Shown: piece by piece, positions 1-47,400 of the stretch
Layout of the letters: every line of letters begins with the position of its first letter
Numbering within the stretch: the first letter of the stretch is position 1
NCBI RefSeq assembly: GCF_037042905.1
Contig: NC_087251.1
Coordinates: 3,102,001 to 3,166,000, forward strand
Direction: 5' to 3'
Source of the DNA: Lytechinus pictus
Lineage: Eukaryota
DNA length: 64,000 nucleotides
The notes under the pieces: generated by a model
What the model was told of the DNA's origin: nothing
What the model saw: the letters and a program-made list of their open reading frames with translations, nothing else
The model's database searches: none
Program-made: the position numbers and the translations under genes

Positions 1-1539
1 TTTGAGCCCTTTTTAAATCAAATAATGTGTGGTCACTAGACATTATTGAGGAAAAGTGATCAAAATGACCACAAGGTCCAATAGTTCGGCCAATAACACT
101 GGTTTATATGGAATCATTGCATTGATTTTCACCCAAAAACTTTCAAACTTTTCCCATTTAACAATAATTGATGTTAATATTAACACAATCCTGAATTGTC
201 TCCTCACCATGTTCGCTATAGGCTGATTTAGTATACACATGGGGCAGGGGACAATGTGGCCAAAATGACCAAGGTGGTCAAAATATTTTGGGACACTCAA
301 TTTAAATGATTAATACACCAGTGTTAGGTGTCACAGCACACCCTTGTAACGATTATAGTAACATTCAAAGTATTTTTGGATAAATTGAAGTATTGAACAG
401 ATGGTATTGGTCATTTGGGGGGGGGGGCAAAAAGTGGCCAAAATGACCACAATCTGTTAAATGGGGTCATTAAGACTTGACATATTGGGAATCAGCATGA
501 AATTCTACACAAGAACGACCTATGCATCATTCCCATTTTATAAAGGAAGAAGATAAAGCACACGGAAGACCTCAAATTCCTGCCGATTTGCAGTTATTGT
601 GCAAAATTGCACGAATGGTCAGTTACCCAAAATGACCCTCATAGGTCAAAAGTCAAAACTAATGATATAAATTACATGAGGTCAAAATACTTTTGAAATG
701 TTCATTTTAAAGGATTAATACACCAATGTTAGATGTCACAGCACACCCTTGTAACGATTCTGGTAACATTGAAGTATTTTTGGATTATTGAACTGATGTT
801 ATTGGTCATTTTTAAGGCCATAAGTGGCCAAAATGACCATAAGGTGTTCAATAGGGTCATTAAGACTGGTATATCTAGAATCAGCATAATATTCTATACA
901 AGATGGACCTTTAAATGCATTCCCTTTTTATAAGGGAAGAAGATAAAACACGCTGAAGATCTCAATTTCCTCAGTGCCTATGTGCAGTTTATTATGCAAA
1001 ACTGCGCGAATGGTCAGTTATGTCTAAAGTACCCCAAATGGTCGACCCTCATACGTCAAAACTGACGGAATAGATTACATGAGGTTGATGGTTATGATCC
1101 AGCGCATATTTTGAAAATAAATGTGGATTTCTAAAGACATCCAATCGTAGCTCTGATCAACTTTTGTAACACATTTCGGACAAAAAAAAATATCATGAAA
1201 ATTGTCATTTTTTGCCAAATCATGGCCAAAATGACCACTGCTGTTGTGATTTGGCAAATGAAACCACTTTGTCTGGAATCTGGATCCATTTTTACTTAAG
1301 ATAGACCCTTTTAATTGCATGTGGCTACAAAAGCAGTCTGTTAAAGGGACCATGCATTTTCCAAAGAGTGGTCAAATTGGTCATTTTTGGTCAAAAATTT
1401 GCCAAAATTGCAAAAATGGCGTGAGTACGGTCAATAAGACATTTTTTTAATCAGCGCACAATTTTACCCTGGATAAGCTTGTCAAACCTTCCCCACCAAA
1501 AATTCTGAATGAAGCCCCCTGGCCCTATCTCCTAGACTA
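1..1539. mobile_element. Terminal part of a non-autonomous DNA transposon (Academ-like) with internal ~400-bp tandem duplication
   Basis: Ends ...CCTAGACTA (TAG...CTA-type terminus); 301-700 and 706-1060 are diverged direct copies; recurrent CAAAATGACC motifs; other end not in window. Confidence 0.5.
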
Positions 1540-1550
1540 ATAAATTTGCC

Positions 1551-1742
1551 CCAATAAACCCGGAAGTAATTTTGTTGTAAGATTTTGTATTTACTGATCC
1601 GATACGCTATACGGCTGTCATTGGACATTGTCATTGAGCTTAAATCCGTCTCGTTATACTGACTACTGTATTACTGGTACAGATATTGACATTTAGTGGA
1701 ATTCGGAAAGAGAAGAAATGCAAGTTTGTTTATAAGGTAAGT
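1551..1742 (+). promoter_or_regulatory. Candidate distal presenilin promoter and non-coding first exon
   Basis: CCAAT at 1551, ETS site CCGGAAGT 1560-1567, locally CpG-richer, consensus donor AG|GTAAGT at 1736/1737; coding exon 1a has an acceptor, so an upstream UTR exon is expected. Confidence 0.45.
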
Positions 1743-2149
1743 TTAATTAAAGAGGCCGATCTATAGATCAATTCAGTGATTAATAATGAGGATATTCATG
1801 ATAATGGAATGATTTTTTGGTCTGCATCCGTGTCCAGGCCGGTGCAGCATGAGAGGACTCCCAGGCCACTTACATTACCAGCGCATGCGATTCTTTTGCA
1901 CACGTATCTTGAGGGGTTATCATAGTTCTGTGACGCAGCTATTTGAATTACACAGGAGCTAAATCGCCAGGTATACATTTAACATAGAAACATGGCAGCA
2001 CACAGTACTTAGTCCACAGTTCGACTATCGACGTCTGGGAGGAAGGGTTAAGTTTCATTTTTTCTTTAATATTAATGCAGTCAATATCAGTGAACATGGA
2101 CAAACATGACAAAGTCAAACTCAAAGGAGAAACGGCATGCCGGAGAAAC

Positions 2150-3006
2150 TAGCCTTGACTTGAGGACTCCATGACCATGTCATGATGATGTTTTTTTTAA
2201 TAATAATATTTTGACATAGGCCTATATTCTTAAATTAATCATGACTAGGCCTACACTCTTCCCATAAGGCCATAGACGCAGAAGCGAGACCTAGACACCC
2301 GAATGGATTTCCCTAGGAAATCCATAGTGAGCAGTTGATAGAGGGTGAAATCGGTTTGTACGGGTGAATTTTATTGATATTTGAAGAACCTTCAAACGCC
2401 TTAATGCGTATGAAGGTTCCAAAAATTGGTTAATGAAATTTAAAAAAAGAGAAAATTTTAAGGTTTCTTACCAGACCGATCTCGTGTAGATCCCTCGATC
2501 CGTTTGTCAACAAAGCAAATACAATACTGTACATGATTATAAATAATTATTTTTAATCATGTAGGCCTATTATTAAATTTTAGTATTTGTTAAATAATAA
2601 TTTGTATCTATAAATTGTTCTTCAAAACGGCATTTTGTAACAACTAACATCGCTAATCGAATGTACGTCATAACAAAGCAGTTCAAGGGTCAGACCTATT
2701 GTATTTGCTTTGTTGACAAACGGATCGAGGGATCTACACAAGATCGGTCTGGTAAGAAACCTTCAAATTTTCACTTTTTTATTATCCAATTTTTGGAACC
2801 TACATACGAATTGGGCGTTTGAAGGTTCAAATATCAATAAAATTCAGCCGTACAAACCGATTTCACCCTCTTACTATGGTCTTAGGGAAATCCATCCGGG
2901 TGTCTATGTCTCGCTTCTGCGTCTATGGGAAGAGTGTCCAGGCTCCATGATGAAGAAGTATATGTCAAAATATTTTAAAAACATCATCATGGAGTCCTCA
3001 AGGCTA
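2150..3006. mobile_element. Foldback-type non-autonomous element (hAT-like), ~370-bp imperfect inverted arms
   Basis: Termini TAGCCTTG...CAAGGCTA; 8-bp TSD GGAGAAAC at 2142-2149 and 3007-3014; arms ~2150-2525 and ~2697-3006. Confidence 0.8.
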
Positions 3007-3358
3007 GGAGAAACAGTGATCATAAGCTCTCTGTAACAGTGGTATTTATTTAACTGATGATTAAATTTTAAATTGCCAAAACAAAAGTGGTTTTATCCCC
3101 AGCCATGGCCCATGGCATGCAACCAGGCATTTCTGGACCATATTGAAAGAAAGCACAAGCAGCGTCTCGATTCATGAATATAGAAATGAGAAAGTGCATA
3201 TCTACCAATTGTATGTTGAGAAAACAGAGTCTTAAAAGATGATTCGTTAATAATCTGCTCATGTGTCAGAACCCCAATCCTTGTCTTTTTTATTTTGCTG
3301 GCAAAAAGAAGCTGCTGAAAACTGCTTATCTAATAAAAGAGAGCCAATGGAGTAAATT

Positions 3359-3476
3359 AGAAAGTCAAAAAGGGGCCTAAGCTTTCGATCCTAGCAGAAT
3401 CTTCGTCGGAGGCAAAATTTTGCCTCCGACGAAGATTCTGCTAGGATCGAAAGCTTAGGCCCCTTTTTGACTTTCT
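3359..3476. repeat. Perfect 118-bp spacerless palindrome; probable inverted Penelope-like pLTR fragment
   Basis: Exact inverted repeat centred at 3417/3418; each arm contains a hammerhead-like fold. Confidence 0.85.
3422..3460 (+). ncRNA. Minimal type I hammerhead ribozyme-like motif (mirror copy on - strand, 3375-3413)
   Basis: Stem I GCCT/AGGC; core CCGACGA (CUGANGA with U4C); stem II GATTCT/AGGATC; GAAA; palindromic stem III AGCT; NUH = CUU. Confidence 0.6.
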
Positions 3477-3904
3477 TTTTTATTTTGTTAATTAGTTCTA
3501 ACTATTGCTATTTATTAGGTCCATTTTTCCCCAATGAGTTGGGACCAAATATTTTTTTAATCAAATGACGTTAGTGAACATACAATGTAGATCTACCGTT
3601 ACACGAAATAAAGCTCTGCAATTTTAACATCAATGTGTTCTGACAACATACTGAACAGTGAAAGTGTACATGCACATTTTAACTTCATGTCCATGGAGAT
3701 CTCTAATATCACATTAATTACCAAGATCATGACATGTACATACACGTATCAATTGGTTTGTATGATATTGAAATGTATTTGAAATGTATATTAATCAAAC
3801 ATTTTAAGAATGAATTGCAGAGAGTTATTAAAACACACTATGGTTTACTATCATTCACTTGTGAGAAAAGCAATCTTTATTCCACAGTCACAAAAATGTT
3901 CCTG

Positions 3905-6106
3905 TTTTTGTCTCGCCTGCATAGCAGAGCGAGACTATAGGCGCCGCTTTTCCGATGGCGGCGTCAACATCAAATCTTAACCTAAGGTTAAGTTTTTGAA
4001 ATAACATAACTTAGAAAGTATATGGACCTAGTTCATGAAACTTAAGGTTTATAAAGTATTACTGAACATCCTGCCTGAGTTTCAGATCACATGACCAAGG
4101 TCAAAGGTCATTTAGGGTCAATGAACTTAGACCATGTTGGGAAAATTATTTTCAAAATCTTAACCAAAGGTTAAGTTTTTGAAATGACATCATAACTTAG
4201 AAAGTATATGGACCTAGTTCATGAAACTTGGGCATAAGGTTAATCAAGTATTAGTGAACATCCTGCTCGAGTTTCAGGTCACGTGACCAAGGTCAAAGGT
4301 CATTTAGGGTCAATGAACTTTGGTCAAGTTGGGGGTATTTGTTGAATTACTATCATAACTTTGAAAATTTATGGATCTAGTCCATGAAACTTGGACATAA
4401 GGTTAATCAAGTATTAGTGAACATCCTGCCTGAGTTTCAGGTCACATGACCAAGGTCAAAGGTCATTTAGGGTCAGTGAACTTTGGCCAAGTTGGGGTAT
4501 TTGTTAAATTACCATCCTAACTCTGAAAGTTTCAGGGATGCCAGAGTTCCGGCTATAGCCGAAATTCCGGCTTTTTCATTTTTCCGACGTTAAGTTCCTG
4601 CTGGTCGAGTTTTCTCAGGCCGGACAGAACTGTCTACGGCCAGATCCGGCCGTTCAATGAGAAGTCTATGCTCCGTACGGCCGTTATGATCATGTACCTA
4701 AGCTATTGTGCAAGAAAAAATCCTGTGATATAATGGAATTAGACTCGTACGAGCCGGTCAGTTAAACGCTAGTTTTAATCAAGTTTTTTGTGTGCGTGTG
4801 TGTGTATATGGTCGCATTACGCTAGACTGCACTGTATGTATGTGATTGGTGTTGACTGATCGCCGTACATTATAATGTGTATGGATTGTGAACGTAACTT
4901 TGATTTTTGAGAAAACGACTGTATTTGAGTCTAGTGTAATACCAATTGATGCGATAAGTGGCATGGGCTGCATGGCTATGCGTTCGCTGCGCGATGAGTA
5001 TGCCTACACCGGCTGTACACGGTGTTTTCGCGCTCCCGTTCAATTCACGTTGTTATTCTGAGCTGATTCTCCAGTTGGATTGTGGATTTAATCACAATTT
5101 TTCAACAAGTATGGATGTTGAAAGAGGAACCAACATTAAGCAAATAGACAGTGGAATCAAGAACAAATTCCAGTGGAAGTGGTTGGAGAACAAAGACAAT
5201 AGTGGAACATTTCTCTCGGATTATTTTCGCAAAATCGATGTCGCTGGTAGTGGTAAAGCACGATGTATTGTTTAATTATGTTCTTGTAGACTTCATCAAG
5301 ACATAAATATTTTTCATGAATTAATTGTAAGTTGAGGCTCTGCAACATAAAAAAATGCCCAAAACTTGAGCTAAATTTTTGGGAAAATGATCCCTAAAAT
5401 AGGCTCAGATTGCATCAGAGACTATTTAGAACCCTAGAGCTTCCCTGGACCCCGGCCGAATGGGACTTCGCGCTTCGCGCTCGTCATGTACGCTTCGCGC
5501 ACATAATTTACCTTCCAAAAAAGTTCAGGCCCTGGGACCATTTGCCACTGGCATCCCTGAAGTTTATGGATCTAGTTCATAAAACTTGGACATACATGTA
5601 AGAGTAATCAAGTATCACTGAACATCCTGTACGAGTTTCAGGTCACATGACCATGGTCAAAGGTCATTAAAGGTCAATTAACTTTGGCTGTGTTGGGGTA
5701 TTTGTTGAATTACCATCCTAACTCTGAAAGTTTATGGATCTAGTTCATAAAACTTGGGATATAAGAGTAATCAAGCATCACTGAACATCCCCTGTGAGTT
5801 TCAGGTCACAAAACCAAGTCAAAGGTCAGTTAAGGTCAATAAACCTAGGCCATGTTGGGGTAATTGTTGAATTGCCATCATAACTTTGAAAGTTTTTGGA
5901 TAGAGTGAATGAAATGTGGACATGGGTGTAGTTGACAGTCTTAAGTCTCCGTTCAAATGTCATTTATGGTCAATGAACGTGGTATTATGTCATTATATGA
6001 ATGGTGTTTTTGTGAATGATTATTTTATAGTAGTTTTCAAAGTTAGCACTGCTGCTATATTAAATTGTGTAATGCAGGTGAGACTGCCAGAGGCGTTCCA
6101 CTTGTT
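3905..6106 (+). mobile_element. Helentron-associated non-autonomous element (HINE/DINE-1-like) family A, interrupted by a hAT-like insertion
   Basis: T-run flanks with no TSD; 5' hairpin GTCTCGC..GCGAGAC; subterminal inverted repeat GTCTCGCCTGCAT/ATGCAGGTGAGAC; internal ~160-190 bp tandem units; 3' end CCACTTGTT. Confidence 0.75.
4533..5559 (+). mobile_element. hAT-like deletion derivative with a transposase N-terminal remnant
   Basis: 12-bp TIR CAGGGATGCCAG; AAGTTT duplicated relative to uninterrupted host units; remnant KNKFQWKWLE...ARCIV* (5111-5275) resembles a zinc-finger start. Confidence 0.7.
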
Positions 6107-6301
6107 TGGTACGCTTTCGCTTGCTAGTCTGCAAGCTTCATCAGACCGTCGTAGTAGGCAAGCGCAGTTGCTGATTCATGATAGTGGAATTAAGAATGTT
6201 TCTTTCTACACACCAATCAGATCAACCTTTTCAGTGATATTTACTCTTTGTGCAGTTTGTCCTTATTTAGAAAACAAAAATTTTGTTTTTTTTTGTTTCA
6301 G

Positions 6302-6364
6302 AGGCTTCCTGACTCAATAAGTATTTGGACATTTGATTTCTATTAATACTGTAATATATACAAG
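6302..6364 (+). other. Candidate non-coding 5'UTR exon of presenilin
   Basis: Long T-tract plus tttcag acceptor and AAG|gtaatg donor. Confidence 0.35.
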
Positions 6365-8679
6365 GTAATGAAACTACATACAGTGTAAATCTTCACCTAT
6401 TATAACCAATTCATGTGCTTTCATTATAACCATTTTATAGATTGCAGTATTTCTGCTCTTCCACTAAATTAATTCACTTATATATTTTTGTGGGGCAAAA
6501 TCCACCCTAAGTGACCCCAACACCAAGTTGATTTAATCCATGTTAATCTAACAAGCTGAGCTCTGAAAAGTATAAAAAGTCCTGAGTAATTTTTCATTTT
6601 TTAAATTCTATCTTTATTCTCCATCTTTTTTTATTTACTCTCAGATATTGAAATAATTCAAATTCACATAATAAACAAGCCAAATATAATTATAAAAGGA
6701 ATTTGGTGTTTGACATCAATAAGCAGCTCTTTTGTACTTATCAATGTTATAATCTTGGAAAAGTTTTTAAACATCACTTTCTACAAGTATGTTTTATACA
6801 TGTATTTGATTTATGAACTTTTTAAGTTACTGCTTGTTTGAATACATGTAGCCTCTAAAATCAACTTGATGGTTTTTTTTTTACTTCATTTTATATATCT
6901 TATAAAACAAGTTGAGGTTTATTGTTTAAATTCAATCATTACTTCTACTTAAGAAAGTTTTATTTCATCATTTCCATCCCATATTAAGTTATTAACACAT
7001 TTGCATGATGCTGTCCAGAACAAAATTAACAACATACATGTAGTCGGATCAGGGAAGTCTAACTCCCACTTTCTTAGTGGGATCATCATCATCATCAATG
7101 TCACAATGAAAAGTTTGTATTGTGTATAATTTTTCAGAAAGTGAAAATTAATTTCCCCTTTTGATATTAAAATAAGAACCAAAGTATTTGTATCAGACTT
7201 GAACTTAAATTTGATGCACTTGCCATACAGTATAGCAATGACAGTATCAAAATAAAATATATGTGACCTGATTTTGGAATAAAAAGTGTAGAATTTGATG
7301 CTCATATTGTGACATGGAATATCTTACTGTGTAATGTTCTAAGCCATCGTAAAAATACAGGTTCAAATCTGTCACTATGCTATCATCCTTATTACAATAA
7401 AAGCGAATTTAATATCTAATCGTAATAACGTCATAGCAATTGTATGATTCACTACAATTTATTTGACCTTTACGCCAAAGTAAAGCTTGCAGTCATTCAT
7501 AATTGTTATTAGTATTCTTTCAGTTAATTTGAACCACAAATAAAAAAATACTTATAATTCACATTTTCAGAAAATGAGCAAAATTTGATGTTCTCCAAAA
7601 TTGGATTGTGGACCAGTTGTAAGGTGTTTCTTCACATGTGCTTGATACATTTTGTCATTGTTACACTTCGTACCTTACCGTTATATTATTTTCTAATTTC
7701 ATCAATTTTTTCTACATTTTAGTTTTAGCTTGAGAAAAGCTTATTTATGATGAAGTCCATGTATTTCTGGGCAAATAAGAAGACATGCTAAGAGGTACAT
7801 GTACATGTACACTATGAATATGAAATGCAGGTTGCAATGGGTATTTACATGTAGAATGTTATTTAAACAAGAAAATATAAAAATTCTTCACGATTCTTCC
7901 TTGTCCATCCATAGATACAATTTTTTTTTTTTGGGGGGGAGGGGGGGTTATTCAGAATAATTCTATGACAAAACTTGAGTAGCTGTAGCTCCAGGGAATC
8001 ATTTTCTAAGTTCATACAGTAGGCATGCATGTAACTTACTTTGGTCAAGTTTTGTTGATGTGCTTTTTGCCATTAATACAAGGATAATGATAATCATTTT
8101 AAGCATGTGAATTTTGTAATTGTTCGATTTTTTCAAAGTATTATTTTTCATTAACGGTACTTGTTTTTTCTAATTTTTAGTTGTACTGAAATAATTGCCA
8201 TAATTGGTTCAGTTTTTATTTTATTTCAATGACGTCAAATATCTTTGCATTTGACTTACTAAATTTCACATACATGTTCGAAATAAAATCATGAATAACA
8301 TTTCTTTTCATTTGTTTCAAATTGTCACTAAGCACTCTAGTGATAGGGTCTAGTACAGTGCATCTCACATAGTATGTGCTATGAATTTTGACTTATTAAT
8401 ATTAGTAGTAGTATTCTGTCAAATGAAGCCACCACAGATGGAAATACTACTCTAGTCAACACATAACTTTATCTAACATTCACTATATTAGAGTTTGTCA
8501 CACCACATGAAATGTCTGATTCTAAATACATCTCATTCTTTAAATATTTACACTTAATTTTGATAATGGTGTCCATATCAAATATTGTATTATTTTCAAA
8601 CCCATTTGATTTCATACACATGTATTGTACATGTAGATCATGCTTTATATCCTTGGGCAAGGTATTTTATTCCAATTGT

Positions 8680-8795
8680 CTAGTCTTTCGGAGGAGACTC
8701 TAAGCCGTCGGTCCTGGGTAAAGGAGAGTCACACCATTTGCACGTTAAAAAACCTACTCCTCTTTTCGTAAAGAGTAGGGAAGTTATCCCGGGGA
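8680..8795 (+). mobile_element. SINE remnant with Deu/Nin-domain-like core
   Basis: CTTTCGGAGGAGACTCTAAGCCGTCGGTCC...CACGTTAAAAAACC...TCGTAAAGAGTAGGG...CCCGG matches the Deu/Nin core as recalled. Confidence 0.55.
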
Positions 8796-9544
8796 AGTAG
8801 TTAACGTATTAATTTATTACTGATAATTACTAATTTATAATCCTGTTCCTTTGTAAAGTTGCATTAGGGTAATTTGTACTGTATTATAGTAACCTTTCCA
8901 GATTAACTGTCCGACACTTATATGACACGCATGTGTTGATAGTGTCGTTAATTTTTTATCAATCAATCTATATGATTCACAATACCTAACTATGATTTGA
9001 GAATGCATTATGTTATAGGTCTGCATTCTCTTCCAACTCTCAGTTTCACTGATAATTCCAGAGATATTACTTTAATTTAAGCATACACATATGTGTACAT
9101 ATGGTCATGTACATACATGTATCATGATCTTGTCACCTGAAATGGCAGCAATGTTACCATTCAAAAAAAGTCTTTGCTTACATTTTGTTTGAAAAATAAT
9201 GTATTACAAATTTTGTATCCGCATAAAAAAAATGTATAATAATATTTCATAAAGCTATTTCTTTGGATAACACTGAAAGCAGAGTTATTTGTGAGTATGC
9301 CTAAGTTTTAATAAAATTTGGCAGTCCACCAGTGCCTGCTCGATGATGGTGGTCCCCGGTGCAATTTTGTCCAGACTGGAGCGGAGCTTATACATAAGAA
9401 ATCCAGTTTTGTTAAAGATTTTAAATTAAGTTTAGGCCTATGTTTCCTTTTAGATCTCTATAATTTTTTGCATATTTCCAAACGTTGGTCAACCAGTTAT
9501 AGTTATGAAAATAATAGTACCAGGCAGGATTTCTCAATTTTCTT

Positions 9545-9735
9545 TCTTGAATTTATTGGCCCGAAACATTGCATTCCCGTTGCATGCGTGCAGCCATATT
9601 GTTTTGTGTGTGACTAATAGACATAGAGGGCATCAACATTTTGCAGCGTAAATACGATCAAACAAACAGAACAAAATGGTGGTGCACATGCTTCAGGAAT
9701 GCATTGTTTCGCGCTGATTAATTCAAGCAAGAAGT
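9545..9735. repeat. Decayed inverted-repeat (MITE-like) remnant
   Basis: TTGAATTTATTGGCCCGAAACATTGCATTCC vs GGAATGCATTGTTTCGCGCTGATTAATTCAA. Confidence 0.5.
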
Positions 9736-10165
9736 TGAAGCCTGAAGGAATTTTCATGGTCAAGTCCACCCCAGAAATATGTTAATTTGAATCGATGAAG
9801 AAAAATCAAACAAGAATAACAATTAAAATTTCATTAAAATTGGGTGTAAAATAAGAAAGTTAAGGCATTTAAAGTTTCACTTATTGTTACAAAATACGCA
9901 CATATCATTGACATGCAAATGAGAGTCACTGATGTCCCTGACATAAAAAAAATTGTTTGAATTACTCAATATTTCAATTTTTTACAGATTTGACAATAAG
10001 GTCAGACTTGACTGAACCATGGTAATTCCACTTGTTGAGGGAGGTAGAAAATTTTGTTTCACATGAGAATGAAGAGAAAGTTAGAATATTTCCTATAAAA
10101 ATTAAAATATAAAAGAAATAGTGAATGAGTGACGTCATCAATCCCCTAATTTGCATACCAACCAG

Positions 10166-10346
10166 GTGGGTGTTTCATAAAGCTGTTCGTAAGTTAAGAG
10201 TGACTTTAAGAACGACTGGTGATCCTTTCTTACGCGCAAAACCCTCGCCAATGAAGGTTTTTGTGTATATTATTTACCCCAAGAAAGGATCACCAGTCGT
10301 TCTTAAAGTCGCTCTTAACGTACGAACAGCTTTATGAAACGGCCCC
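10166..10346. mobile_element. Short palindromic MITE (Harbinger-like)
   Basis: ~65-bp inverted arms TTTCATAAAGCTGTTCGTA...; CAG on both flanks; second copy ~25835-25998. Confidence 0.7.
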
Positions 10347-10492
10347 CAGGTCGTGCATTATTTTGCACTGTATTTTTAAAATTATTAGGTGAAACTTTAA
10401 AATGTCATAACAATATTTTAGATAAAATTTCGATAATAGATGTATTTTCAGTGTTATGCTCGAAAGATTTTTCTCTTTTTATTCAAATCAAT

Positions 10493-11122
10493 TTTTGTCT
10501 TGCCCACCAGAGGTGAAGGCGAGACTAAGGGATCCAAATGTCGTCCGTCACAAACATTATGACACAACCGTAAGTCACTTTTCAACCAAACTTGGATGGT
10601 AGATGGTACTTAGGAGACCTGCATGTTATGCTGCAGTCAGAGGTCACATGGTAAGGTCAAAGGTCATTTTCAGGTCAACTTTAAAGTCTATGCGCAAGAC
10701 TCTCTTATGACACATAACTCCGCAACGGTATGTCACTTTTCAACCAAACTTGGGTTGTAGATGTACTTTATAGGAGACCTGCATATCATGGCGCAGTCAG
10801 AGGTCACATGGTAAGGTCAAAGATCATTTTAAGGTCATCGTTATGACATAACTCCGCAACCGTAAGTCACTTTTGAACCAAACTTGGGTGTAGCTGTACT
10901 AGGAGACCTGCATGTTATTTCGTTCAGAGGTCACATGTTAAGGTCAAAATTCATTTCGAGGTCAACATTAAAGTTTACGTGCAAGATTCCTATGACAAAT
11001 GTTATTCCATCCCAGTTATTTTACAATGAACTTTTGATACAATTCTGTTGCGTGCCCTCGCAAATCATGTTATTTCTGGTTACTTTCACAAGTGAGCAAG
11101 ATACAACATTGCTTGCCTTGTT
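10493..11122 (+). mobile_element. HINE/DINE-1-like family B copy
   Basis: 5' hairpin, GTCC microsatellite, ~157-bp tandem units, 3' GCCTTGTT, inserted in a T-run of the host MITE. Confidence 0.7.
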
Positions 11123-11951
11123 TATTAGGGTGGACTTGTCCTCTATAAAGTAAATGAAGCACCATGTGTATGTCCATGTAGAAAAATCAGTGCGTAAATT
11201 CACTAGGCTGCAACCTCCATTTATTAATGTCCATGTACTATCCCATTTGTGCTCAATTCGGTTGACTTTTCAGTTCAGTTGTAAACATTGTTAATTAATC
11301 ATTTGAATTCAAGAATAAGTGCAATTTCTGAATAGAATGATATCTTCCAGCTGTGTGTTTTTACTTTGCTTAGCTGTAAAGTGTAAAGTGAGGGTAACAT
11401 GGGTTTATGTTTTTAATGGCTAATTCAGAAAAGACTTCTGAAAATAAATTTCTTAATATTATAAAGTAACTGAGTACTTAAAGAGACTATTAAACTGTTT
11501 CTTTAATTACATGGTCCATGGTAAAATGTAAAAAAAATTTCTGAAAGTTATAGACAATAATTTATTTATGGAATTTGTACTTATTTAGTGCAGTTGCAAT
11601 GTACACCAAAGATATTTCATATCAGAAAATATACAAATCATACAGAACTTTTGTTTGTCAATATTCCTTATTGAAGCCATGAATTTAATATTTATTTCTA
11701 GATTTTTTTCATGATTCTTTTTCATAAGTGTAGATGTGCACAAATACATAATGGACTTGACTTGGGAAAGACTACAATCAACATAAAGTAGTAGCTAGAC
11801 GTATACATTTCATTCAATTACTCAGCAGGCGGAAGTCACTCATTTTGTGACGTCTAATCACACAAGCACATACATCCTCCTCCTAGCTTCCCTGTACAGC
11901 GTATTTCTCTCACATGACGTAGCCCTTTGCTTTTATATTTCCAGCTCCCAT

Positions 11952-31216
<19,265 letters not shown>

Positions 31217-38440: not shown

Positions 38441-41400
38441 GTATGATCCCATTACCTTTCCTTGGCCTTGGGCAGGTGGGATTCGAGAGGTAGTCCCGAA
38501 AAAGAGTCGGATCTCGGGCGTGGGCGTTGGTGTATTATAGTTTTGAAAAAGAAGTTGTCAAGTAACTTTTTGTATTTTCAAGTAGGACCTCATGATTATA
38601 TGAATTTTTCTAAATTTATTTGTTATACTCATTAAAGCTGATGTTTGTTTATTTATCATGATAAGAGTCTGGAATGTTATGTCCATTACTATAAATAGGA
38701 AAGTCACTATCTCTGCTGGAATTCATCTTCATTAATGTCATCACCTTTTCATCATTATCTTTATCCTCATGCTCATTATTTTTTATAATTTTATTGTCAT
38801 TATTATTATTGTTATTATTATTATTATTGTTGTTATTATTATTGTTGTTGTCATTGTTATTATTAGTATGAACATTATCATTATGACCTTAAACTAAGCC
38901 TTCTTAATGTTATTGTCAATTGTTTTATTCATCATGATTATAATTATTGATTCATTTGATAGAAGACGGATGTAATAAAAGCAATGGGAAGAATGGTCTC
39001 ATATGTTTATTTATATTTATAATAATATTTTATGCAAATTTCACATATTTCATTAAAACATGAACCAGAGTAGTAGGTCCATGATTAAACCATGTCAGAA
39101 TAATATGTATTCCTATTAGTTAATACAGTAAATATTTATGAGTTATTGTGTGTTTTCTTCATATCACTTTCATTTGTGCAGTCTCAGTCTATCAGAAGCA
39201 TGTAACCCTGTCTGATAAGAGTCCTAGTATGATTTGGTGATATTTAAACGAAAATATTTCAAAATAATCTGTTTTATCAAACCATTCTCGAAGGACAAGT
39301 CCACCCCATCAAAAAGTTGATTTAAATAAGAAGAGAAGATCCAACAAGCATAGTACTGAAAATGACATCAAATCGGATGTAAAATAGGAAAGTTAAGACA
39401 TTTTTAAGTTTTACGAAATAGCTATATGCACATCCCGGTTGTTATGCAAATGAGGGGACTGATGACATCAATCACTCACTATTCTTTTGTATTTTATTAT
39501 GTGAAATATGGAATATTCTTGTTTTCTGCTCATTGCCCTGTGAAACTGTTTTATTTCTCCCTGAACATGTGGAATTACCATTGTTTAACATTTTATGGTT
39601 CAATCAAGTTGATCCTTATTGTCAAATCTGTAAAAATGGAAATAATGTATAATTCAAACAATAAAAAAACAAAAGAAATAGTGAGTGAAGGACATCAGCG
39701 CTTCTCTCATTTGCATCTGACTAAATTGTGCATATAACCATTTTTTGAAAAAAAAGAAAAACTTAAAAATGTCATAACTTTCTTATTTTACACCAGATTG
39801 TGATGATTTTTTAGCATTATGCTTGTCTGATTTTTCTCTATTGATTCAAATCAACATTTTTATGTGGTGAACTTGACCTTTACTTAAATTATGGGCAGTA
39901 TGGGCAGGTGATGGTTTGCTTTGATATTTCAAGTGATAAAAGAATATAGAAAATGCAGATGAAGAAATTAAATGAGGAACAAAAATAAAGTCACCTTAAG
40001 GATAAAAATAGGGCTCAGATATCCTGGTGACAACCCTGTTTACAAGTTATAGTATTCTATTGTGAATTTGATCTTTGTAACTTAATAAGAAATAATTGTA
40101 TAGCACTTATCGCAAAACATGTCTCTAAGCGCTTACATGTAGGAAAATTAGAAAGAAAGAAAGAAGGAATTTCAGCAAAACATTAAAGTAATTATATAGT
40201 TCACAGTAGACTATAGACAGCAAAGTCATATGAAAAATTGTTTACCAAACAAGACCCCTTTCTTATATTAATCTATCCTGGACGAAAGTCATGCCACATT
40301 ATGTTTTTATGAATGTTTTTAACAGAAATATGGCGCAATATAAATGCTGTGGATCATCATCATCATCGCATTATTTGCATTTCAGTATATTTTCTGTATC
40401 ATACATCTTTAAATGTTTTGCCATTGTTTCAGAAAACCTGAGGTTTGACACGTTCTGTGATTCGATCCAAGCTTTATTTGGACCAGACATCCGAAGCAGC
40501 GATCTGAAATCAATTTTCAGAAAAATCAGCAACAATCCAGATGCTAAGGTTGATTGGAGTGAGGTAAAAAACAAAAATCAATGATTTCTGTCTTTCAAGG
40601 ATGTTTTGTTTGTATCAATGAGAAACAATTATGAAAGACCAATGGAAAGAATGGACAATGTCAATTCAGTGCTGTTATTGTTCTACATAGAAACAATTAA
40701 TGCTTGGGCACTGCTTCTTATTTTCTACATTGTTTGTTTGGGGGATGGGGTAGTTCTGTTTGAGGTGAAAACAACCCCAATAATATTTAAAAAAAAAACA
40801 CTTGTATTTACAATATAATGATATTATAAATCAAGAACTTATTCAAGTATTTGTAGCTTGACATTCTAAGAATTGCTGTAACTTGTTCTTTGTTCTACTT
40901 GATGAAATGTTGTGGGTTCCCATTGAATATTCTATTTTTGCTTCAGATTTTTGGATACTTTCATTCTACGACTGATGAACCTGAGCCGATGCTAAATGAA
41001 GACATCAGTGTTTTTACTGTCTCAAAGAAACAAAGAGTTGGAGAGGCTGCAGGTAATGCAATCAATTCACTTGAAAATTTAGATTTTATTACCATTGCAT
41101 GGGTCTTGAATAATTAAATCAAATTGCAAAAAAACCTGTTTCACATTTGCTTTTAATCACTTAAATGTAATGAAATACAATTTGATTTTGATTATATTTT
41201 GTGATGTGTTATTTTTCACTTGATCTTTTTAAAGATTTACATAGTTCTTTAAAATTGGAAAATGTATTGTTTGCTGTTATTCTAAACATATTCATTTATA
41301 AATCATCAAGATTATTTCTGTTATACCCCCAAACATATAATTTTTGTAAATTTATTTTATCTTATCTGAATTATCTAACATATTTTCTCTTGCAAATTTC

Positions 41401-44400
41401 AATTTGTATTCTTATGATGTTTATGAAGATATTTGTTTTGGTTTAACAAGTTTGTACCCATGTGATGATAAGTGTGTTTCATGCTCTTTGGAATGTAATA
41501 TATGTATGACTGTCTGAGTATACAATCTTACATTGTCTGAGCGTACAATCTTATGTTGTCACTGGAAGAGTTTTCTTTTGTAATCTTAGGTACGTAAGTT
41601 TAATAAAAGAAATTAATTTATATTTTTGTATTAGGTGACAAGAAGAGAAGAGATGTGATTCATGCTGCAACAAGTGTACCTCAGGTAGATGTGTATCTAG
41701 CAGCATCTCAGAAAGGGGTTATATCAGTATGGAACTGTAAGGTGAGAAGATGATTTGTTCAATCTCCATTACAGTATCTTTATGGTCAGCTATTATCAGA
41801 ATGTGTACAAAACATAGATTGATTTTCTGCAACTTATCAGATGCAATGTGTTACTTACATTCCTCTTCTTTGTCTTGGGTGGCAGCGGTGGGATCGTCAG
41901 AGCAAAAATTATACACCACATAGAGCTACATGTGAATATCTAGTCCAGTGGCTGTATTCTGGTTGTTTATCATGTACTATTTAGTGATTTACCTCTAGTT
42001 TGGTTCACTTTCACATAATCCTTTCATTTACATGGTGTTTGATATATATTTAAAGGACAAGTCCACCCCAACAAAAAGTTTATTTGAATAAAAAGAGAAA
42101 ATTCCAAAAAGCATAACACTGAAAATTTCATCAAAATCGGATGTAAAATGAGAAACTTATGACATTTTTAAAGGACAAGTCCACCCCAACAAAAACTTGA
42201 TTTGAATAAAAAGAGAAAAATTCAACAAGCAAAACACTGAAAATTTCATCAAAATCGGATGTAAAATAAGAAAGTTATGACATTTTAAAGTTTCGCTTCA
42301 TTTCACAAAACAGTTATATGCACATCTCGGTCAGTATGCAAATGAGGGACTGATGACATCACTCACTCACTATTTCTTTTGTATTTTATTATACGAAATA
42401 TGAAATATTTTGATTTTCTCATCATTGCCATGTGAAATGAAGTTTCATTCCTCCCTGAACACGTGGAATTCCATTATTTTAACATTTTGTGCTTCAGGCA
42501 AGGAGGTCCTAATCATCAAATTCGTAAAAATTGAAATATTGTATAATTCAAACAATAAAAAACAAAAGAAATAGTGAGTGAGTGACATCATCGACTCTCT
42601 CATTTGGATGTAACTGACTCGTTCATATAACTATTTTGTTAAAAATAAGCGAAACTTTGAAATGTCATAACTTTCTTATTTTACATCCGATTTTGATGAA
42701 ATTTTCAGCATTGTGCTTGTTGAATTTTTCTCTTTTTATTCAAATCAACATTTTTCTGAGCTGGACTTGACCTTTAAAGTTTCGCTAATTTCACAAAACA
42801 GTTCTATTCTCATCCTGGTCGGTATGCAAATGAGGAGACTGATGACATCATCAACTCACTATTTCTTTTGTTTTTATTATATGACAAGGTCAATGGTGGC
42901 ACTAATACGTATAATGATAGGAGGGGTGAGAAGACCAATAGAAAATAAACAGAAAGTGGACATAATAAAAAAAAAACAGTTTATTTAGAGATGTGGGTTG
43001 GCACTTGGCAAGCCTACTACACATTAGGTGTATTCGGACATGTGGACATGCACTTTTTTTTAATATATGATTTATTTCCCTTATTTTTAATTGACCACCT
43101 AAAAACTAATAGGATGCAATTGACTTTCCCCTGAAGCACTCCCTATGAATGTTGTAGACTGTGTTAATAGATTGCTATTTAGATTGTGAGATAACATTTA
43201 TATTTTCTCTCCAACAGACACTGAGATTACAAGCATGCTGTGATGTTAATGTAAGTATGTCATCTAGCAACTCAATGGTCCATTATTTGTCCCCATTAAG
43301 TGCTATTCAATTAGTAGTGGGTGTAAATTGCTTTTAATTAGTTGTTGCATGCAGTGTTTTGTACATGTACTCGTTATGAATCTCTGTCAAGTTTATCAAG
43401 GGTGGTGCAATGGTTTGAGGCAATGGATGTTACCTGTATTGTGTGGGCACTTGTTGAGCTGACTTAAAAAAACACCTTCAGGTTTTTTATTCATCAAGAT
43501 TTTATCCTTTATAATCTGAAACAAATAAGGATTATTAAATTCAATATGAAAAATTTCATCCATTGCACAGCTTATATGTACATCATTCAGATAAACTTTC
43601 AAGAGTTAAAAAAAATCTATTTAAAACAGTATGTATTACTTCAACTTTTTCTCTGATTGAGGTCACATTTAGTTTTTTGTCTCGCCTGCATAGCAGAGCG
43701 AGACTATAGGCGCCGCTTTTCCGACGGCGGCGTCAACATCAAATCTTAACCTAAGGTTAAGTTTTTGAAATGACATCATAACTTAGAAAGTATATGGACC
43801 TAGTTCATGAAACTTGGACATAAGGTTAATCAAGTATTACATCCTGCCTGAGTTTCAGGTCACATGACTAAGGTCAAAGGTCATTTAGGGTCAATGAACT
43901 TAGACCATGTTGGGAGAATTATTTTCAATATCTTAACCGAAGGTTAAGTTTTTGAAATGACATCATAACTTAAAAAGTATATGGACCTAGTTCATGAAAC
44001 TTGGGCATAAGGTTAATCAAGTATTAGTAAACATCCTGCACCAGTTTCAGGCCACATGATCAAGGTCAAAGGTCATTTAGGGTCAATGAACTTTGGTCAA
44101 GTTGGGGGTATTTTTGAATTACTGTCATAAATTTTAAAATTTATGGATCTAGTTCATGAAACTTAGACATAAGGTTAATCAAGTATTAGTGAACATCCTT
44201 CCTGAGTTTCAGGTCACATTACCAAGGTCAAAGGTCATTTAGGGTCAATGAACTTTGGCCAAGTTGGGGGTATTTACCTTCATAACTTTGAAAATTTATG
44301 GATCTAGTTCATGAAACTTGGACATTAGGTTAATCAAGTACCACTGAATATTCTGTGCGAGTTCCATGGTCACATGACCATGGTTAATGGTCATTTAAGG

Positions 44401-47400
44401 TCAATGAACTTTGGCCATGTTGGGGGTCTTTGTTAAATTACCATCCTAACTCTGAAGTTTATGGATCTATTTCATAAAACTTGGGATATAAGAGTAATCA
44501 AGTATCACTGAACATCCTTCCTGAGTTTCAGGTCACAAAACCAAGGTCAAAGGTCAGTTAAGGTCAATAAACGTAGGCCATGTTGGGGTAATTGTTGAAT
44601 TGCCATCATAACTTTGAAAGTTTATGGATAGAGTGAATTAAATGTGGACATGGATGTAGTTGACAAGTCTTAAGTCACCGTTCAAATGTCATCTATGGTC
44701 AATGAACGTGGTATTATGTCATTATATGAATGGTGTTTTTGTGAATGATTATTTTATAGTAGTTTTCAAAGTTAGCACTGCTGCTATATTAAATCGGGTA
44801 ATGCAGGCGAGACTGCCAGAGGCGTTCCACTTGTTTAATCATAGTTCAGTCTACAAGGAATAATTGTTGTGATTATAGACTTACTACATTTATATACTAG
44901 ATTTTTTTTTTCAACTGTAGTTCTGATTTTCAAAAGCAATCACAAATTGACATAATTAGCAAAAATAAAAAAGAAAGAAAGCACATGTGTTTGCCTTTTC
45001 AAGCTAAAGTTTTTGTTGAAAGCTCTGTCATGAATATTCATGCATACACAATCTACTCCATCTCTTGCTATGTTGATATCTTCATTTAAAGTACTCATGC
45101 TTGGGTATTCTTACCACTCTTATGTCAATATTTCAACACAGAGTATGAACTGTAAAGGCCTAAAGAAGGTAAAGAATCCATGGCCCTTCCATGAGTATAT
45201 TGTAATCTTTACTGCAAATATTAAAATAGTCCCATGGGTAGCAACAATGTCTCAAAAGCAGACATGTTTGAGAACAAGATGAAGATGTGATGGAATCTGT
45301 TAATAAAACCACTTTGATTGCTGTGGTTCATGTGAATGTTATGTATTTTGATCATCATACAATCTCCTTTTGATTTGTTTATAATTATGTACATGATATT
45401 GATAGATGTTTCTAGAATAAATGGATGTACAATCATTTCAATCAATTAAATGCCCAAAGGAAATATCAAGCAATTTTCTGTCTTCTAATACAAAGGTGTT
45501 AAAGGAAACCAAAACCCAAGAAGAGAAGCAATCTTAACGTGGAGAAGGTTTACGGTTTACTATGTGTAATGTGAAGAAGGGAAGGAAATACAGGCAGAAA
45601 GATTGAAATTGAAAGACGAGATAGGATGAAAAGAGGAAATTAACTCCACCATGCAAACCTACAAAGATCATCAGAAGCAATCTTTTTGGAAAGCGCTAAA
45701 TGAGAGGAACAATTAAAAAAAAAGTTTCATCAAAATCGGTTATGAAATAAGCAAGTTATGGACGTTTAAAAAGTCTTGTTGTACTTTCTATGGGGATCCT
45801 CAAATTGGCAAACATGCTTCAAAATGGCGGATTTTGTGGACAACTCTCCATTTAATTGTACACAAATTTTCAGATTTTCCCCTTTATTTTACATATTTGA
45901 CATTATTTCTTCCTGACCTTGACATATGTGATGTGAATTATATTTTCCCATGACATGTTGTGCTCAGAAGGAGGCAAGAAGCAATTTGGAAAATAATGAG
46001 GAAAATTTGAAAATTTGTGTACAAAACAAATGGAGAGTTGTCCACAAAATCAGCCATTTTGAAGCATGTTTGCCAATTTGAGGATCCCCATAGAAAGTAC
46101 AACAAGTCCTTTTAAATTTCCATAACTTGCTTATTTCATAACCGATTTTGATGAAACTTTTTTTAAATTGTTCCTCTCATTTTACTCTTTCCAATAAGAT
46201 TGCTTCTCTTCTTGGGTTTTGGTTTCCTTTAATCATGTAGATCGATGCATGATTTCATTACACTTACGTCTCTTTGACTTGAAATATAAGATTTATCCAT
46301 TGCAAAGAATGCATGTACTTTACAACTTAGAAATCATTCTAATCCTACCTTCAATTCACTTGGTTATTTGATATCCAGAAAATATTAGATCTAACATATA
46401 TATAGAGAGAGAGGGGAATGGGGGGTGGATGGGGGTTGAGGTGAACACTTTTGGATTCCATTTCTTGTATTTTTAAGGAAATAATTCTTAGGTTTTTTTA
46501 AAATATATATTATGTTTCATGAATTGATGAGTATGTGTTTTCTTTTTTGTGTGAAAATTCATTTCATCACGTGTTATGTAAAGATGTTGCTCTGAAATCA
46601 TATAGCTCATATTTGACTTTTGGATACTCACTGTATGTAATACAGAAACTGTAATATAGTCTTACTTTCAATTGGACTTTTTGATGACCTTTTGAATAGA
46701 ACCAATTCAGTCTTTGATCCTTTTGTCAATATTTTCAATACAATAGGGAAGATACAATGCTCATTCTTATGGCATATCTTTGATATTGATTTTCATGCCT
46801 TCTACAATACTAGTGTCCAATGCACAAAGGAATGAATTGCATATTCTAAGTTGTTTATGTTTGCTCCTTGTAAGAGAGTGACAGAGCAAAATTTTGTGAA
46901 AAACAAATCCATGAGGAAGGAAGATGGAAGATTAAGAAGAGATAGGAAAAATGAATGAAAATTTTAATTTGGAAAAGGTTTCTTGTAGGATAGGAAATAT
47001 TTTTGAATTTTTTAAGGCTGTTTTTTTCCACAATGGGGCGATTGCTTCATTTTTTGGACTAATTCTTTCATTTCAAAGGCTACTTTTTTATTATGCTATA
47101 AAAGCAATTCTCATTATTCTGTTGTAGAAAGTTGATTTTTAAAACTTTCTTGATTATTGTTTGTGGCAGAACTTGACCTCTTGGGGCAGCTTGAGAATAG
47201 ATGGTCAAGTAAAAGCACTTAATTTTGGGAATTTTAGGTGCAAATTGGGCTGTCATGACGGCAAAATAGCCTGTCACCCTCATGTATTTCAAATGCTTGT
47301 TTCTTGCATCTCTAATGATAGATGATGTTATGTATGTAATATGTGTTACTGTCATACTGACTATATCCTTTGTTATACAGGTTACATTTATAAATTATGT

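What the first reader, a model, noticed from the sequence alone, without database searches (positions are those of the whole stretch)
3359..3476. Perfect 118-bp palindrome built from two back-to-back minimal hammerhead ribozyme motifs (Penelope-like pLTR)
Seen: an exact spacerless palindrome. Each arm reads GCCT-CCGACGA-A-GATTCT(GCT)AGGATC-GAAAGCT-T-AGGC. That gives stem I, a CUGANGA-like core with U4C, stem II, GAAA, a self-complementary AGCU stem III and a CUU site. TCTTTTTTATTTTG occurs at both 3284-3297 and 3474-3487, a possible TSD. Known: Penelope-like elements carry minimal type I hammerheads with palindromic stem III that work as dimers, and often insert with inverted pLTRs. Inference: a recent Penelope-derived insertion, probably in the presenilin 5'UTR intron, where it would form a 59-bp dsRNA hairpin that masks the ribozyme fold, or a DNA cruciform.
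Basis: partly seen in the sequence, partly recalled or inferred. Interest (0 to 1): 0.72.

Follow-up and report, generated by a model that had tools for sequence, protein, structure and literature searches.

The report
Head-to-head Penelope stub with variant hammerhead
The palindrome is real: it is a young, 190-base scrap of a very abundant Penelope-like jumping gene in a sea urchin, two copies of the element's ribozyme-bearing end joined head to head as such elements are known to do, and its one unusual trait is a changed letter in the ribozyme core that the whole family shares.

Summary
The 118-bp exact palindrome (3359-3476), its two minimal type I hammerhead motifs and the 14-bp direct repeat are confirmed. 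The host is a camarodont sea urchin. The insertion is larger than the palindrome: 3298-3473 plus one repeat copy, including a ~60-nt one-sided tail. Public runs show a dispersed family, at depths over a thousand times the flanks, with two preferred 3' ends that match the two ends of this insert; one orthologous contig lacks it. That is the published anatomy of endonuclease-containing Penelope-like elements: inverted ends, palindromic junction, tail, target duplication. The same motif type lies downstream of GIY-YIG/RT frames in 5 of 20 metagenome loci, but no such frame was linked to this family. At this locus the hairpin masks both ribozymes. The only unusual point: core position 4 is C, not U, in over 95% of laid contig depth in two organisms, so it is a family trait, not decay. 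Activity is untested. The scan noted similar stubs elsewhere in this genome. Verdict: ordinary, with one modest testable variant.

The parts
3284..3297 (+). Target-site duplication, left copy (14 bp, AT-rich)
   Evidence: Exact match to 3474-3487, only two copies in the window; family depth begins right after it
3298..3358 (-). Tail: family sequence between the distal 3' end (3299) and the proximal 3' end (about 3356-3361), present on the left side only
   Evidence: Loose ends pile at 3299 in 4 of 4 runs and at 3356-3361 in X5 and X21 (tables 7, 8)
3359..3417 (-). Left arm: 5'-truncated element end, sense on the minus strand
3375..3413 (-). Minimal type I hammerhead motif with C at core position 4 (left copy)
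   Evidence: 34.8 bits
3417..3418 (.). Head-to-head junction; both arms stop at the same family position and share a self-complementary AT
   Evidence: Family reads match through 3418 and from 3417, then run on into upstream family sequence that is absent here (table 7)
3418..3476 (+). Right arm: 5'-truncated element end, sense on the plus strand, ending at the proximal family 3' end; last 3 nt shared with the target duplication
3422..3460 (+). Minimal type I hammerhead motif (right copy): stem I 3422-3425/3457-3460, C3 3426, C4 3427, N7 3430, extra A 3433, stem II 3434-3439/3443-3448, predicted cut 3456|3457
   Evidence: numbering by the consensus in PMC4209133 supplement
3474..3487 (+). Target-site duplication, right copy
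1560..1736 (+). Inferred non-coding first exon of presenilin (ETS-type box at 1560, splice donor after 1736); places the insert in a 5'UTR intron
   Evidence: Only CCGGAAG box and only AG|GTAAG(T/A) donor in 1-12000; inference, no RNA support
11945..12190 (+). First conserved coding exon of presenilin (ATG at 11952)
   Evidence: 52% identity over 79 aa to residues 8-78 of Diadema presenilin P0004; later exons

Best explanation
A recent, passive insertion of a high-copy, endonuclease-type Penelope-like element (or its non-autonomous derivative). Inferred mechanism: the element's GIY-YIG nuclease cut both strands of an AT-rich target 14 nt apart; each 3' end primed reverse transcription on uncleaved element RNA, one at the distal start site (about 120 nt copied, with tail) and one at the proximal start site (56-59 nt copied); both cDNAs stopped just 5' of the hammerhead and were joined through a self-complementary AT, giving a head-to-head palindrome between target duplications. 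The hammerhead is the family's normal pseudo-LTR motif; here each transcript direction carries one sense and one antisense copy, so it zips into a 59-bp duplex and cannot cleave or form the head-to-tail dimer. The C at core position 4 is inherited from the family. Shown: anatomy, copy abundance, the two ends, family-wide C4, predicted masking. Inferred: the enzyme, twin priming, the lack of host function.
For:: X1 flank depth about 30 against 40,605-226,906 in the seven bins over 3289-3477; loose ends at 3299 with unlike flanks (agreement 0.45-0.53) in all 4 runs; second end at 3356-3361 in X5 and X21, mirroring the right arm's end (3476 mirrors 3359); family runs on upstream of 3418, so it is not normally palindromic here; an X1 contig joins 3191 to 3524 with 126 other letters; another X1 contig has a head-to-head joint at the same place with 36 letters between; same motif type downstream of GIY-YIG frames in 5 of 20 loci examined (2 also RT). 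Literature: inverted pLTR, junction palindromes, tail and 8-10 bp TSD (PMC3846280); two RT start sites define the tail, both strands are cut and extended, AT-rich targets, uncleaved RNA is the template (PMC11167929); min-HHR consensus (PMC4209133); stem pair probabilities 0.79-0.99 for the right arm alone, 0.0 in context on both strands.
Against: No RT or GIY-YIG frame in the window (tblastn with 6 PLE frames) and none tied to this family; the exact-family pattern found 0 metagenome loci. The tail is about 60 nt, against 30-40 in the papers read. The 126 letters of the 'empty' contig did not lay on the flanks and are 16 short of the expected 142, so a single target copy was not seen; that contig is from organism A, whose family variants differ from this copy more than organism B's do, so it may be a sister species. 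The proximal end is not among the listed loose ends of X1 and X24. AT-rich 14-mer repeats are common near repeats (80 pairs spaced 30-400 nt in the window). U4 is not met.
Confidence: 0.85

Rival explanations
1. Same element, other route: one cDNA primed at the distal site folded back (or self-primed on antisense RNA, as proposed in PMC3846280) and copied itself, then jumped to the target.
For: Perfect arms and no spacer; the right junction has 3 nt exact and 7 of 9 nt imperfect pairing with the target; self-priming is the published proposal.
Against: The short arm ends within 0-3 nt of a second family-wide 3' end, which fold-back does not predict; a second head-to-head contig has 36 reiterated letters at the joint, more like end joining.
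Confidence: 0.25
2. Piece of a non-LTR retrozyme or other non-autonomous hammerhead repeat, mobilised in trans by Penelope enzymes; no autonomous parent shares this sequence.
For: No coding frame linked; C4 could mark a relaxed non-autonomous lineage; retrozymes are argued to derive from pLTRs (10.64898/2026.07.22.740005). Non-autonomy is compatible with the best explanation.
Against: No head-to-tail tandem here; minimal, not canonical, hammerhead; no read pile-up at the cut site and no 'go back' joint listed.
Confidence: 0.2
3. Assembly fold-back artefact: the palindrome, or its perfection, was made by sequencing or polishing.
For: No laid read or contig spans the junction; arms have zero differences.
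Against: Both flanks are collinear with one X1 contig; both outer ends fall on family 3' ends; 14-bp duplication; asymmetric tail; head-to-head joints exist in X1 and in unrelated animals (L124).
Confidence: 0.05
4. Host-selected regulatory hairpin (dsRNA, editing or small-RNA source) or cruciform in the presenilin intron.
For: Very stable hairpin (RNA about -130 kcal/mol for 3284-3487; DNA -74); likely intronic position.
Against: Absent from the orthologous X1 contig; no compensatory change between arms; no RNA depth on most of the flanks and almost none across the junction in X21 and X24.
Confidence: 0.04
5. Palindromic MITE (DNA transposon) with a chance hammerhead look-alike.
For: The window is rich in inverted-repeat elements.
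Against: Arms are not terminal to the insert; family copies continue upstream instead of folding back; descriptor null 0 in 100 shuffles; 14-bp duplication.
Confidence: 0.02

Closest known systems
Minimal type I hammerheads (min-HHR) in pseudo-LTRs of metazoan Penelope-like elements (Cervera and De la Pena 2014, PMC4209133)
   Same: Short stem I, long stem II closed by G10.1-C11.1, extra base after A9, palindromic 15.2-16.2, NUH site, U-rich 5' flank, thousands of dispersed truncated copies, opposite-strand pairs; sea-urchin examples are in its supplement
   Different: C at position 4; all 44 rows of the supplement part I read have U4 (their descriptor fixed the core, so C4 families would be missed). 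Pair here is spacerless, not 100-700 bp apart
Inverted-pLTR insertions of EN+ Penelope elements (Arkhipova et al. 2013, PMC3846280; Craig et al. 2021, PMC8557442)
   Same: Head-to-head inverted 5'-truncated copy, palindrome at the junction, one-sided tail, TSD
   Different: No coding part; only 176 bp; tail about 60 nt and TSD 14 bp, longer than the 30-40 nt and 8-10 bp in the passages read
PAc (Poseidon of Anolis) in vitro mechanism (Frangieh et al. 2024, PMC11167929)
   Same: Two 3' start sites downstream of the hammerhead, AT-rich target, uncleaved hammerhead copied into DNA, no RNA reads ending at the cut site
   Different: In PAc the frame starts inside the hammerhead; here no ATG stands in the hammerhead or tail on the sense strand (sequence printed)
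U4C hammerhead variant of a viroid (Ambros and Flores 1998, as cited in Perreault et al. 2011, PMC3088659)
   Same: Same core change; lower activity in vitro but enough in vivo
   Different: There a full ribozyme with tertiary contacts; here a minimal motif without stable stem III, fixed in a genomic repeat family
Non-LTR retrozymes of animals (PMC7229834; 10.64898/2026.07.22.740005)
   Same: Non-coding repeat with type I hammerhead, related to pLTRs
   Different: Retrozymes are head-to-tail tandems; this is a head-to-head stub

Membership tests
EN+ Penelope-like element | RT plus GIY-YIG frame upstream of the pLTR | tested here: inconclusive
   None in the window; no family copy in metagenomes; same motif type beside GIY-YIG frames in 5 of 20 other loci, 2 with RT, but these are other families
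EN+ Penelope-like element | Hammerhead motif near the 3' end | tested here: met
   80 nt and 17-20 nt upstream of the two ends
EN+ Penelope-like element | Inverted 5'-truncated copy joined head to head | tested here: met
EN+ Penelope-like element | One-sided tail between two alternative 3' ends | tested here: met
   Ends at 3299 (4 of 4 runs) and 3356-3361 (2 of 4 runs among listed rows); about 60 nt, longer than the usual 30-40
EN+ Penelope-like element | Target-site duplication, single at the empty site | tested here: inconclusive
   14-bp repeat flush with both ends; the X1 contig lacks the insert but its 126 letters are not shown
EN+ Penelope-like element | Dispersed multicopy family | tested here: met
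   Depth ratio above 1000 and unlike flanks; the tool warns that summed depth is no copy number
min-HHR (PMC4209133) | Core CUGANGA with U4 | tested here: not met
   C4 in both arms and in over 95% of depth in X1 and X5
min-HHR (PMC4209133) | C3, G5, A6, G8, A9, GAAA, U16.1, H17 | tested here: met
min-HHR (PMC4209133) | Extra base after A9; G10.1-C11.1; palindromic 15.2-16.2; stem I 3-5 bp; stem II about 6-8 bp | tested here: met
min-HHR (PMC4209133) | Covariation of stems among copies of this family | tested here: inconclusive
   Only per-site variants were visible. Across other families stems covary (8 of 10 pairs), but rows were chosen for having stems
min-HHR (PMC4209133) | Self-cleavage as dimer or with protein | not testable with these tools
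   No read ends at the cut site in X21, X24; this is also so for the active PAc ribozyme
Non-LTR retrozyme | Head-to-tail tandem units, each with a hammerhead | tested here: not met
   One head-to-head pair; no further copy in the window. Other loci of the family could not be read
MITE / DNA transposon | Terminal inverted repeats at both ends, fixed structure among copies | tested here: not met
   61-nt one-sided extension; family continues upstream of the junction

The most novel reading that the evidence does not exclude
A still-mobile sea-urchin Penelope family, thousands of copies strong in two organisms, has fixed U4C in its hammerhead while keeping every stem and all other core bases. 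If C4 cripples cleavage, the family is natural evidence that the motif is kept as a structure (protein-binding site or reverse-transcriptase stop) and not as a nuclease; and this palindrome is a snapshot of twin priming from both start sites with both cDNAs halting at the 5' edge of the folded ribozyme. Such families would be invisible to descriptors that fix U4.
Probability: 0.25. Interest if true: 0.55.

Novelty: new member of a known kind. Interest (0 to 1): 0.25.

Why it matters
As a locus it matters little: a young passive insertion. As a family it offers a cheap handle on an open question, what the hammerhead does for Penelope-like elements (cleavage was dispensable for insertion in vitro, PMC11167929): a natural C4 family can be assayed against its U4 form. 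The perfect palindrome with two defined start sites is also a clean specimen for telling twin priming from fold-back as the source of head-to-head Penelope insertions.

Tried and rejected
No whole genome is held, so copies could not be counted or read. Rfam: no hammerhead match; miRNA matches are far below gathering scores and reflect any long hairpin. Exact-family pattern in metagenomes: 0 loci. C4 pattern in viral contigs: 71 loci, 1 of 71 with both stems, taken as chance. Loose pattern in prokaryote genomes: 0 of 17 with stem II>=5 and stem I>=3. A-to-I editing: A>G and T>C differences in X21 and X24 cannot be told from family variants. Cleavage ends: none listed (table 6), uninformative. 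The catalytic dimer is not the predicted minimum (-16.1 against -25.4 kcal/mol for an alternative dimer), and with its tail the left arm folds away from the hammerhead stems (p about 0.02); these are weak points against unaided activity. The covariance model R1 came from rows found with a pattern drawn from this motif, so its score for the arms is partly circular. Lunse et al. 2017 and Ambros and Flores 1998 are not held: I saw only their titles; Lunse's variants may include C4. Supplement file 1 of PMC4209133 was not searched and parts 1 and 3 of file 2 were seen only as search passages or not at all.

Full report
Observation. The sequence holds an exact palindrome at 3359-3476, 59 nt per arm with no spacer; the next best exact arm in the window is 15 nt. 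Each arm carries a 39-nt minimal type I hammerhead motif (3422-3460 on +, 3375-3413 on -). A descriptor that leaves position 4 free and asks for stem I of 4 bp or more and stem II of 5 bp or more finds only these two sites, and none in 100 shuffled windows. The 14-bp direct repeat is at 3284-3297 and 3474-3487 only. Rfam has no hammerhead match in 1-12000 at E<=10.

Host and place. An exon at 25.1 kb is presenilin, 99% identical over 91% of an 81-aa query to a Lytechinus pictus protein and 97% to Strongylocentrotus purpuratus: a camarodont sea urchin. The exon with ATG at 11952 matches the N-terminus of Diadema presenilin. The only CCGGAAG box and the only AG|GTAAG(T/A) donor in the first 12 kb lie at 1560 and 1735. 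So a 5'UTR intron of about 10 kb around the element is likely, but this is inference: the two RNA runs put no depth on most of the flanks.

The family. No genome is held. I laid 4 of 24 listed runs on 3100-3900. In X1 (contigs, DNA by guess, organism A) the flanks have depth about 30 and the seven bins over 3289-3477 have 40,605-226,906; the tool warns that this is no copy number, but it points to thousands of copies. X5 (organism B) shows the same block. Loose ends pile at 3299 in all four runs with unlike flanks (agreement 0.45-0.53), one base from the left repeat. A second end at 3356-3361 shows in X5 and X21; it mirrors the right arm's end (3476 mirrors 3359); it is not among the listed rows of X1 and X24, where an indel at 3367 breaks alignments (198 rows not shown). 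Behind 3418 and before 3417 reads run on into a shared upstream sequence (agreement 0.58-0.68) that is absent here: the family is not normally a palindrome, both arms are cut at the same base, and they share a self-complementary AT. One X1 contig joins 3191 to 3524 with 126 other letters, so it lacks the element; 142 would be expected from clean absence, the letters are not shown, and at 3334, 3339 and 3362 this copy agrees with organism B and not with most of organism A, so X1 may be a sister species. Another X1 contig has a head-to-head joint at the same place with 36 letters between. No record spans this junction. RNA reads (634 in X24, 733 in X21) lie in both directions about equally and nearly all run on into unlike sequence: read-through from dispersed copies; no ends pile at the predicted cut.

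Position 4. N7 is C or A about half and half in organism A, so variants in the core are seen. For X1 the counts by kind of change (C>T 2, G>A 4) are filled by listed places other than 3427 and its mirror 3408, and X5 has no C>T or G>A place at all (tables 1 and 3). C4 is thus above 95% of laid depth in both. In the RNA runs some C>T and G>A places are among 19 rows not shown, so a U4 minority is not excluded, and a U4 sister family over 15% apart would not have been laid. In 56 metagenome loci found with a looser pattern, 13 of 28 U4 matches and 0 of 28 C4 matches have stem II>=5 and stem I>=3 (my count; several are copies of one family). All 44 rows in the part of the Cervera supplement I read have U4, though their descriptor fixed the core. 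U4C is known from a viroid, with lower activity in vitro but enough in vivo (PMC3088659). Searches for 'hammerhead' with 'U4C', 'core', 'variant' gave that one paper; with 'CCGANGA' none; 'hammerhead, sea urchin, Penelope, ribozyme' one squid genome paper; 'Lytechinus, Penelope' none on this family by title or abstract start. Lunse et al. 2017, on Penelope hammerhead variants, is not held and may cover it.

Link to Penelope enzymes. The exact family is not in the metagenome collection and tblastn with six PLE frames finds nothing in the window. Of 20 loci examined (chosen for stems or shared family, of 56), five have a GIY-YIG frame upstream of the motif on the same strand (L077, L096, L107, L115 above the Pfam cut-off, L127 below), and L077 and L107 also have RT (9 frames sent). 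They share only the motif type. L124 shows a decayed head-to-head pair in another organism. Stems covary across these families (8 of 10 pairs), on rows selected for stems.

How it most likely arose. Published Penelope insertions have an inverted 5'-truncated copy, a palindrome at the head-to-head junction, a one-sided tail and a short duplication (PMC3846280, PMC8557442; passages). The purified Anolis protein cuts and extends both strands at AT-rich DNA, starts at two internal RNA sites whose spacing is the tail, and copies uncleaved RNA (PMC11167929, parts 1-2 of 4). The insert fits this point for point: left junction at the distal site, right junction at the proximal site with 3 nt shared with the target, both cDNAs ending five bases 5' of stem I. 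I infer twin priming and end joining; fold-back remains a rival. At this locus any transcript makes the antisense arm first; stem probabilities drop from 0.79-0.99 to 0.0, so the ribozyme is masked and no head-to-tail partner exists.

Novelty. The kind is known, sea-urchin min-HHRs are in print, and the scan's own notes list like stubs and head-to-head pairs elsewhere in this genome (unchecked leads). What is left is the family-wide C4, which I did not find described for a Penelope family in the searches named. It works like a Penelope pLTR end; membership lacks the enzyme link, and the motif fails the U4 test of the min-HHR consensus. Papers seen: PMC4209133 parts 1-2 of 4, supplement file 2 part 2 of 3 and passages; PMC11167929 parts 1-2 of 4; 10.64898/2026.07.22.740005 part 1 of 5; PMC3088659 section 8 and passages; PMC3846280, PMC8557442, PMC6765202, PMC7229834 passages; PMC11014351 one reference line. 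Interest 0.25.

Noticed in passing
window 6108-6147, minus strand: A second minimal hammerhead of another family with normal U4 but G at 16.1 and only 3 bp of stem I; it abuts the end (6107) of a different repeat that recurs at 44679-44836 and 57819-57973, so it is probably cut or decayed (35.2 bits).
   Followed up: partly
window about 3900-6107: Repeat with tandem units of about 160-190 bp, with relatives near 43.7-44.8 kb and 57.3-58.0 kb, and a GC-richer piece at about 4520-5550 between its units.
   Followed up: no
window 2153-3008: Long nested inverted repeat (MITE-like), about 79% over 350 nt, 300 bp left of the insertion; more such elements at 10161-10351, 12738-13327, 39291-39880, 42049-42778, 45499-46232.
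   Followed up: no
window 13401-14483, minus strand: Intronless rhodopsin-family GPCR frame (360 aa) nested antisense in a presenilin intron.
   Followed up: no
window 3478-3531: One X1 contig and 7 X24 reads share the same four differences at 3490-3503: another allele of the right flank or a different repeat; not resolved.
   Followed up: no
L076, L079, L082, L086, L105, L124 and L078, L095, L117, L125, L126: Two multicopy min-HHR families in animal DNA within metagenomes; many copies lose similarity 10-20 nt upstream of the core, as this insert does, hinting at a truncation hot spot just 5' of the ribozyme.
   Followed up: partly
L107 120-455, minus strand: A second frame starts at the hammerhead right after the RT-GIY-YIG frame, the partial-tandem layout described for PAc.
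   Followed up: no
window about 40-60 kb, plus strand: Exons of a WD40-repeat gene follow presenilin.
   Followed up: no
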